Assembly: GCF_003334385.1 (NCBI RefSeq) | Contig: NZ_QOWN01000003.1 | Direction: 5' to 3' (one strand) | DNA length: 64,000 bases | From: Escherichia coli | Lineage (GTDB): Bacteria > Pseudomonadota > Gammaproteobacteria > Enterobacterales > Enterobacteriaceae | In this document: piece after piece, positions 37,719 through 37,865 of the stretch | Position numbering within the stretch: the stretch's first letter is position 1 | How the letters are laid out: the number at the start of each line of letters is the position of its first letter | Program-made: the position numbers and the translations under genes | The notes under the pieces: generated by a model | What the model was told of the DNA's origin: nothing | The model's database searches: none | Seen by the model: the letters and a program-made list of their open reading frames with translations, nothing else

Positions 37719-37734
37719 ACTGTCGATACGTACA
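37719..37734. promoter_or_regulatory. LexA box (SOS operator) in the ydjM promoter
   Basis: CTGTcgatacgtACAG fits CTGT-N8-ACAG, 16 bp upstream of the ydjM start; a second degenerate CTGT…ACAG-like element follows at ~37736..37760. Confidence 0.8.
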
Positions 37735-37865
37735 GTATAGGATTTTTATACAGTGCACGGAAGTGGTGACGGTGTAACTCTTTCTCTTAAATTGACGATT
37801 AATCCGTCAGTTGAATGCAATTTCAGATAAAGAACCAGGGGCAGCGAGATCACTGCCCCTGGTCA

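What the first reader, a model, noticed from the sequence alone, without database searches (positions are those of the whole stretch)
37719..37760. LexA operator(s) immediately upstream of ydjM
CTGTcgatacgtACAG (37719..37734) is a consensus SOS box 16 bp from the ydjM start, and a second degenerate CTGT…ACAG-like element follows. This marks ydjM, a membrane protein of unknown function, as SOS-induced.
Basis: partly seen in the sequence, partly recalled or inferred. Interest (0 to 1): 0.3.

Follow-up and report, generated by a model that had tools for sequence, protein, structure and literature searches.

The report
Known tandem LexA operators of ydjM
The sequence just upstream of the E. coli membrane-protein gene ydjM does carry two adjoining binding sites for the DNA-damage repressor LexA, but this has been in the literature since 2000, so the finding is correct and ordinary.

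Summary
Confirmed, but already known. The window is E. coli chromosome. ydjM is on the minus strand (37113..37703), and its promoter is identical to MG1655. The CTGT-N8-ACAG core is real but lies at 37720..37735, one base to the right of the stated coordinates, with 16 nt between it and the ATG. In gene orientation, box 1 is TACTGTACGTATCGACAGTT (37737..37718). Box 2 is CACTGTATAAAAATCCTATA (37755..37736); it shares 2 nt with box 1 and has only one canonical arm. "Consensus" overstates box 1: it matches 15 of 20 positions (published HI 9.0).

The 16-mer core alone is no rarer than chance (1 found, 0.75 expected). The evidence for function is this:
- The two 20-mers rank 2nd and 3rd among sites in the window, behind the known cho box.
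- Two such sites within 40 bp never occurred in 300 simulations.
- Box 1 is present in all 80 Enterobacteriaceae species examined, and box 2 in about 78.
- Papers report tandem LexA sites at ydjM, 2.5-fold AZT induction and 8.6-fold dependence on cleavable LexA.

Mechanism: ordinary SOS repression at a weak promoter. The side observation is an invariant non-LexA block (37786..37756) and an invariant CCTATACT at the box junction. Both are unexplained, and no mapped transcription start was found.

The parts
37718..37737 (-). LexA box 1 (20-mer TACTGTACGTATCGACAGTT). Its CTGT-N8-ACAG core is 37720..37735, and it ends 14 nt before the ydjM ATG.
   Evidence: Sequence. My HI is 10.2; the published HI is 9.0. 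The CTG and CAG arms are invariant in all 81 sequences, while the centre varies at 37732, 37730, 37728 and 37725. A box is present upstream of ydjM in all 80 species.
37736..37755 (-). LexA box 2 (20-mer CACTGTATAAAAATCCTATA). It shares 2 nt (TA) with box 1. The left arm CTGT is canonical; the right arm is CCTA instead of ACAG.
   Evidence: Sequence. My HI is 9.8, though the index caps the penalty for breaking the invariant CAG. The same sequence is published at -52 of b1728, and tandem sites are reported experimentally. The left arm is conserved in about 78 of 80 species and lost in L013 and L026.
37734..37739 (-). Candidate -10 hexamer TATACT, preceded by invariant CC, lying across the junction of the two boxes (inferred, not mapped).
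   Evidence: CCTATACTG is invariant in 81 of 81 sequences. This explains why the right arm of box 2 is never ACAG. No experimental transcription start was found.
37756..37786 (-). Conserved upstream block, GAGAAAGAGTTACACCGTCACCACTTCCGTG in E. coli. It is not LexA-like. It contains an invariant GTTACA (37778..37773, a possible -35) and CTTCCG (37763..37758). Its function is unknown.
   Evidence: Per-column counts are. 65% of its columns are at least 95% conserved, against 11% for ydjM third-codon positions.
37113..37703 (-). ydjM coding sequence (196 aa, ATG start). It encodes an inner-membrane protein of family PF04307, a putative metal-dependent hydrolase.
   Evidence: RefSeq annotation. Pfam YdjM match with E = 2.4e-35. 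The ATG is conserved in all 81 sequences, while the upstream in-frame GTG at 37715 is not.
37833..37864 (-). Terminator-like hairpin directly after the upstream gene hxpB. It separates hxpB from the ydjM control region.
   Evidence: 14-pair stem, 9 G-C pairs. hxpB occupies 37866..38534 (-).

Best explanation
These are the two published LexA operators of the E. coli ydjM promoter. In undamaged cells, LexA dimers occupy box 1, a complete palindrome of moderate affinity. They probably also occupy the adjoining box 2, which has one perfect and one defective half-site and is likely helped by the neighbouring dimer. Both boxes lie on the weak core promoter: the invariant TATACT spans their junction. 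Bound LexA therefore keeps RNA polymerase from initiating. After DNA damage, RecA filaments trigger LexA self-cleavage, the operators empty, and ydjM is transcribed at a few-fold higher level.

Shown here or in the literature: the presence, rank and conservation of the sites; damage induction; dependence on cleavable LexA; and a report of tandem binding. Inferred: the exact -10 and transcription start, cooperative filling of box 2, and promoter occlusion as opposed to a downstream roadblock.
For: - Sequence and positions.
- The HI values of both boxes (9.8 and 10.2) lie within the leave-one-out range of validated boxes, which goes up to 12.8. The two boxes are the best non-training sites in 64 kb.
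- Chance control: 0.24 sites per 64 kb, and adjacent pairs in 0 of 300 simulations.
- Box 1 is in 80 of 80 and box 2 in about 78 of 80 species from about 25 Enterobacteriaceae genera, always at the same spacing to each other.
- The 69-nt control region is as constrained as first-codon positions: 67% of its columns are at least 95% conserved, against 11% for third-codon positions.
- Indels occur only between box 1 and the ATG, never between the boxes and the upstream block apart from one 1-nt case. This ties the boxes to the promoter rather than to the start codon.
- Literature: SOS gene list; HI 9.0, 2.5-fold AZT induction and 8.6-fold lexA3 dependence; ciprofloxacin time course; two Salmonella boxes at 14 and 32 bp; tandem sites reported experimentally; box 2 sequence; a YdjM-family gene is also LexA-controlled in S. 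aureus.
Against: - The CTGT-N8-ACAG core alone is expected about once per 64 kb by chance.
- Box 2 lacks the CAG arm in every species, so on its own it should bind poorly, and my HI understates that.
- The whole 69-nt region is conserved, so conservation of the boxes is not specific evidence for LexA.
- The consensus scan finds no sigma-70 promoter, and I could not find a mapped transcription start, so the geometry of repression is inferred.
- The primary binding papers (Fernandez de Henestrosa 2000, Wade 2005, Courcelle 2001) are not held in the library. Direct binding is therefore cited second-hand.
Confidence: 0.92

Rival explanations
1. Only box 1 is a working LexA operator. Box 2 is conserved because it is promoter DNA (a spacer or -10-like TATAAA / TACTGT), not because LexA binds it.
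For: The right arm is CCTA, never ACAG, in 81 of 81 sequences, and it overlaps the invariant TATACT. Two species have lost the CTGT arm but keep the rest of the region (L013, L026). The HI pseudocount caps the penalty for the two broken invariant positions. RegPrecise had only one ydjM site.
Against: Tandem binding at ydjM is described as experimentally reported. The left arm and AT-rich centre are near-perfect LexA half-site sequence and are kept in about 78 of 80 species. The Salmonella study also scores it as a box, with HI 12.85.
Confidence: 0.2
2. The promoter lies upstream of the boxes, so LexA acts as a downstream roadblock or blocks promoter escape rather than occluding the -10. Two candidates are GTTACA-17-CACTGT (37778..37750) and the predicted CTGAAA-17-ATTAAT (about 37826..37798).
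For: GTTACA is invariant, and TACTGT (TAnnnT) sits 17 bp downstream in most species. Genomic SELEX placed an RpoD-holoenzyme site in the yniC-ydjM spacer and proposed CTGAAA-17-ATTAAT.
Against: The CTGAAA...ATTAAT stretch is poorly conserved across genera. The TACTGT hexamer is destroyed in L013 and L026 and is CACTGT in E. coli, whereas TATACT is invariant. None of the candidates passes the consensus scan.
Confidence: 0.3
3. The motif is a chance palindrome with no regulatory role.
For: A CTGT-N8-ACAG match is expected 0.75 times per window.
Against: Two low-HI 20-mers are adjacent (0 of 300 simulations). The arms are invariant in 80 species. Induction depends on LexA in vivo.
Confidence: 0.01

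Closest known systems
The ydjM LexA boxes of E. coli K-12 (Fernandez de Henestrosa et al. 2000; HI from Courcelle et al. 2001)
   Same: It is the same locus. The 100 nt upstream of ydjM are identical to MG1655. The box 2 sequence matches the published one. The 14 and 32 bp geometry equals that of the Salmonella boxes.
   Different: Nothing differs.
[quoted passage not shown]
   Same: One better and one defective box overlap at their ends, here by 2 nt.
   Different: Cooperativity at ydjM was not tested here. The exact overlap and centre-to-centre distance (18 bp here) may differ from colicin operators; my recollection of their spacing is from memory only.
Tandem boxes of the lexA gene itself
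   Same: Two LexA sites lie side by side in one promoter.
   Different: In lexA both boxes are complete palindromes (one is shown) and they do not overlap. In ydjM the second box has only one canonical arm.
The cho (ydjQ) LexA box in the same window, 24432..24413 (-)
   Same: It is a single Gammaproteobacterial-type SOS box 13 nt upstream of the start codon of another SOS gene identified by LexA-box searching. It is the best-scoring site in the window.
   Different: It is a single complete box with a better score (HI 5.7, but it was in the training set). It uses CTGG...CCAG arms.

Membership tests
Gammaproteobacterial LexA operator (SOS box) | 16-bp palindromic core CTG-N10-CAG (ideally CTGT-N8-ACAG) with an AT-rich centre | tested here: met
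   Box 1 has CTGTCGATACGTACAG at 37720..37735. Its centre is only partly AT-rich, and the 20-mer matches the consensus at 15 of 20 positions. Box 2 meets this on one arm only.
Gammaproteobacterial LexA operator (SOS box) | Heterology index within the range of boxes known to bind LexA (candidate threshold <15; HI <14) | tested here: met
   My matrix gives box 1 = 10.2 and box 2 = 9.8. Validated boxes reach 12.8 when each is left out of the matrix in turn. The published values are 9.0 for E. coli and 9.12 and 12.85 for Salmonella.
Gammaproteobacterial LexA operator (SOS box) | Located in or next to the promoter of the regulated gene | tested here: met
   The boxes lie 14 and 32 nt upstream of the ydjM ATG, downstream of the hxpB terminator-like hairpin. 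The exact promoter has not been mapped.
Gammaproteobacterial LexA operator (SOS box) | Conserved upstream of orthologous genes | tested here: met
   Box 1 is present in 80 of 80 species and box 2 in about 78 of 80. The caveat is that the whole 69-nt region is conserved.
Gammaproteobacterial LexA operator (SOS box) | Physical binding of LexA (EMSA, footprint, ChIP) | not testable with these tools
   Reported second-hand: 'tandem LexA-binding sites ... experimentally reported ... ydjM'. The primary papers are not held.
Gammaproteobacterial LexA operator (SOS box) | DNA-damage induction that requires LexA cleavage | not testable with these tools
   Published RNA-seq: 2.5-fold induction by AZT and 8.6-fold lower expression in lexA3. 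Also ciprofloxacin and nalidixic acid in Salmonella.
Cooperative tandem LexA operators (colicin type) | Two boxes overlapping or within a few bp, one strong and one weak | tested here: met
   The 20-mers share 2 nt, and box 2 lacks the CAG arm.
Cooperative tandem LexA operators (colicin type) | Cooperative binding of two LexA dimers | not testable with these tools
   This needs quantitative EMSA or footprinting with single-box mutants.
YdjM protein family (Pfam PF04307) | Significant match to the family profile | tested here: met
   E = 2.4e-35 over residues 1-158.

The most novel reading that the evidence does not exclude
Beyond the known LexA boxes, the ydjM control region may carry a second, undescribed input. 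One element is a 31-nt block (37786..37756, with GTTACAnCGTCACCnCTTCCG at its core) that is nearly invariant across about 25 genera and does not look like a LexA site. The other is an invariant C-TATACT at the box junction, which resembles the sigma-S-preferred extended -10 (my own knowledge, not tested). Together they could mean that ydjM is driven by an unknown activator, or by RpoS, and is gated by LexA. That would link this uncharacterised membrane hydrolase to a second stress signal.
Probability: 0.25. Interest if true: 0.3.

Novelty: already known. Interest (0 to 1): 0.07.

Why it matters
As it stands, this matters little. It re-derives from raw sequence a regulatory link that has been documented for more than two decades, so it is mainly a positive control showing that the first-stage reader can recognise real SOS boxes. 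Two questions around it remain open. The biochemical role of YdjM is unknown, although the family is kept under LexA control in both enterobacteria and S. aureus. It is also unknown what the invariant non-LexA promoter block does. Neither question is advanced by the finding itself.

Tried and rejected
- A consensus search allowing 3 mismatches found nothing, because box 1 has 5 mismatches.
- The sigma-70 promoter scan of 37500..38000 found no site.
- An Rfam scan of 37500..38000 at E <= 1 gave only two sub-threshold chance hits on the hxpB hairpin, so there is no known RNA element.
- Courcelle 2001 and Wade 2005 are not held in the library. Their HI values are cited through. That ydjM was a LexA ChIP-chip target is my recollection only.
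- I looked for a mapped ydjM transcription start in the Kim 2012 supplements and in the Salmonella paper's supplements and text, and found none.
- A literature search for ydjM with RpoS returned only incidental co-mentions, so it does not support the sigma-S idea. A sweep of all 45 papers that mention ydjM found no functional study and no other regulator.
- I considered CRP-like, CpxR-like, marbox, sigma-E, sigma-32 and sigma-54 readings of the upstream block by eye. None fits well, and several rest on bases that E. coli itself lacks.
- I considered an upstream in-frame GTG start at 37715 and rejected it, because it is not conserved while the ATG is.
- I ran no further search on more distant orthologues, because the verdict would not change.

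Full report
**Locus.** The window is E. coli chromosome. A 1-kb query around the finding matches 5,424 of 5,426 complete E. coli genomes at 95-100% identity, with ydjM and hxpB annotated under the match. RefSeq places ydjM at window 37113..37703 on the minus strand (196 aa, ATG at 37703). hxpB (yniC) lies upstream in the same direction at 37866..38534, and tcyP (ydjN) lies downstream. The 100 nt upstream of ydjM are identical to MG1655, where ydjM is b1728 at 1810211..1810801. The protein matches Pfam PF04307 (YdjM) with E = 2.4e-35.

**The observation.** Sixteen bases (37704..37719) separate it from the ATG. In gene orientation the control region reads CACTGTATAAAAATCCTATACTGTACGTATCGACAGTT, followed by 14 nt and then the ATG.
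- Box 1 is TACTGTACGTATCGACAGTT (37737..37718).
- Box 2 is CACTGTATAAAAATCCTATA (37755..37736).
- The two 20-mers share the dinucleotide TA, so their centres are 18 bp apart.
- Box 1 has perfect arms but a GC-containing centre. It matches the consensus at 15 of 20 positions, so "consensus" overstates it, and a 3-mismatch search finds nothing.
- Box 2 has a perfect left half and AT-rich centre, but its right arm is CCTA instead of ACAG.

**Is it more than chance?** The core alone is not. CTGT-N8-ACAG is expected 0.75 times per window, and 49 of 100 shuffles contain at least one. CTG-N10-CAG occurs 27 times.

I therefore built a Berg-von Hippel/Lewis-type heterology index from 18 published E. 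coli boxes that do not include ydjM (table in PMC3009722), and scored all 127,962 20-mers in the window.
- The best site is the cho box (24432..24413), which was in the training set.
- The next two sites are ydjM box 2 (9.8) and box 1 (10.2).
- Validated boxes score up to 12.8 when each is left out of the matrix in turn, so both ydjM boxes are in the functional range.
- First-order Markov simulations give 0.24 sites per 64 kb at HI <= 10.3, and never two within 40 bp in 300 runs.

One caveat applies to box 2. The index caps the penalty for each broken invariant position at about 3.6, so its score flatters a site that lacks the CAG arm.

**Comparative evidence.** One scan of species-representative genomes returned 80 ydjM loci from about 25 genera of Enterobacteriaceae, with 84-99% protein identity.
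- A TACTG-N10-CAG(T/C) box lies upstream of the ATG in all 80. It is 13-17 nt away in most and up to 23 nt where the 5' UTR carries an insertion.
- Box 2 sits exactly 18 nt further upstream in about 78 of the 80. Citrobacter amalonaticus L013 and Intestinirhabdus L026 have lost its CTGT arm.
- The box 1 arms CTG and CAG are invariant in all 81 sequences, while its centre varies at four positions. This is the usual signature of an SOS box.
- The boxes are embedded in a 69-nt stretch (37786..37718) that is conserved as a whole. 67% of its columns are at least 95% conserved, against 11% for ydjM third-codon positions and 71% for first-codon positions. The next seven UTR bases score 0%.
- Conservation therefore shows constraint on the whole promoter and is not specific proof of LexA binding.
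- Indels are tolerated between box 1 and the ATG but essentially not within the 69-nt stretch. This ties the boxes to the promoter rather than to the ribosome-binding site.

**Literature.** The link is established.
- ydjM is in the list of SOS genes in the 2019 review.
- A 2016 paper cites Fernandez de Henestrosa et al. 2000 for experimentally reported tandem LexA-binding sites at ydjM. It likens such arrangements to the colicin operators, where a strong and a weak site overlap at their ends.
- Box 2 is listed verbatim at -52 of b1728.
- RNA-seq of wild type against lexA3 gives 2.5-fold AZT induction, 8.6-fold LexA dependence and HI 9.0.
- A ciprofloxacin time course gives a log2 change of up to 2.6.
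- In Salmonella, ydjM has two boxes at 14 and 32 bp from the ATG (HI 9.12 and 12.85) and is induced 2.1-fold. Its expression is so low that a GFP fusion was undetectable.
- A YdjM-family gene is also LexA-controlled in S. aureus, through a Gram-positive-type box.

I could not open the primary binding papers.

**Mechanism.** The best-supported reading is ordinary SOS repression. LexA dimers sit on box 1 and, probably with help from that neighbour, on box 2. They cover a weak core promoter, and RecA-stimulated self-cleavage of LexA relieves the block.

Where exactly the promoter lies is inferred.
- CCTATACTG at the box junction is invariant in all 81 sequences. The LexA consensus would prefer ACAGTA there, so this is best explained by a -10 hexamer, TATACT (37739..37734), with a poor -35 (TTCCGT, 37762..37757).
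- An alternative is GTTACA (37778..37773), a 17-bp spacer, then CACTGT/TACTGT (37755..37750).
- Shimada et al. predicted CTGAAA-17-ATTAAT further upstream, inside a holoenzyme SELEX peak, but that stretch is not conserved.
- The consensus scan finds no promoter at all, which fits the very low expression.
- No mapped transcription start was found.

Under any of these models the boxes overlap or closely follow the start site, so repression is expected.

**Side observations.**
- The upstream block 37786..37756 (core GTTACAnCGTCACCnCTTCCG) is nearly invariant but not LexA-like. I could not match it convincingly to any regulator motif I know.
- The C-TATACT junction resembles a sigma-S-type -10, but the literature gives no support for RpoS control of ydjM.
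- Rfam finds nothing there.
- These points are recorded as unexplained. They are the only part of the locus that is not already textbook material.

**Verdict.** Interest is low.

Noticed in passing
window 37756..37786 (-): A 31-nt block just upstream of the LexA boxes, with GTTACAnCGTCACCnCTTCCG at its core, is nearly invariant across 80 Enterobacteriaceae species. 65% of its columns are at least 95% conserved, against 11% for third-codon positions. It does not resemble a LexA box and its function is unknown. It could be a -35 element plus a second regulator site.
   Followed up: partly
window 37734..37741 (-): CCTATACT at the junction of the two boxes is invariant in all 81 sequences. It reads as a -10 hexamer with C at -13, which from my own knowledge resembles the sigma-S-preferred extended -10. 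No literature support for RpoS control of ydjM was found.
   Followed up: partly
window 24413..24432 (-): A second genuine SOS box in the window: CACTGGATAGATAACCAGCA, 13 nt upstream of the GTG start of cho (ydjQ, 23512..24399, minus strand). It is the best-scoring LexA site in the 64 kb (HI 5.7, but it was in the training set). It is a known site.
   Followed up: yes
window 60573..60592 (+): TATTTTTTATGAAAACAGCA in the ppsR-ppsA divergent intergenic region scores HI 10.85. It has only the CAG arm, in AT-rich DNA, so it is probably a chance match. Conservation was not examined.
   Followed up: no
window 30297..30316 (+): AGCTGTATAAAAATCCTGAG, inside the celF coding region, shares the 15-mer CTGTATAAAAATCCT with ydjM box 2. 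By my rough estimate, a few such 15-mer coincidences are expected among all pairs of positions in 64 kb, so it is likely chance.
   Followed up: no
loci L013 (Citrobacter amalonaticus) and L026 (Intestinirhabdus alba), 32 nt upstream of ydjM: These two species have lost the CTGT arm of box 2 (AGATGGATAAAA..., AGCCTGGCAAAA...) but keep the rest of the promoter. In L013, box 1 is the second-best scoring of all 80 (HI 5.5; L067 scores 5.3), which might be compensation, but there are only two cases.
   Followed up: no
loci L051, L054, L056, L057 (Citrobacter freundii M-21, Atlantibacter), between box 1 and the ATG: A 7-9 nt insertion (CAGCAYTTTT-like) lengthens the 5' UTR, so box 1 lies 21-23 nt from the ATG instead of 14. 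The spacing between the boxes and the upstream block is unchanged.
   Followed up: no
whole window: CTG-N10-CAG occurs 27 times against 13.2 expected from shuffles. TACTG-N10-CAGT with one mismatch occurs 22 times against 7.9 expected. Most hits are in coding sequence, so the excess probably reflects CTG/CAG codon usage rather than LexA sites.
   Followed up: no
window 35589..36980 (-) and ~41635..41643: tcyP (ydjN) is an intact 463-aa ORF in the window, but it is annotated as frameshifted in the 100%-matching strain 720632. That strain also carries an IS1 insertion between pfkB and ydiY, which the window lacks.
   Followed up: no
E. coli genome collection: Two of the 5,426 places matching the ydjM region are on records labelled as plasmids. 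I did not examine them; they may be mis-assigned contigs or large chromosomal segments carried on plasmids.
   Followed up: no
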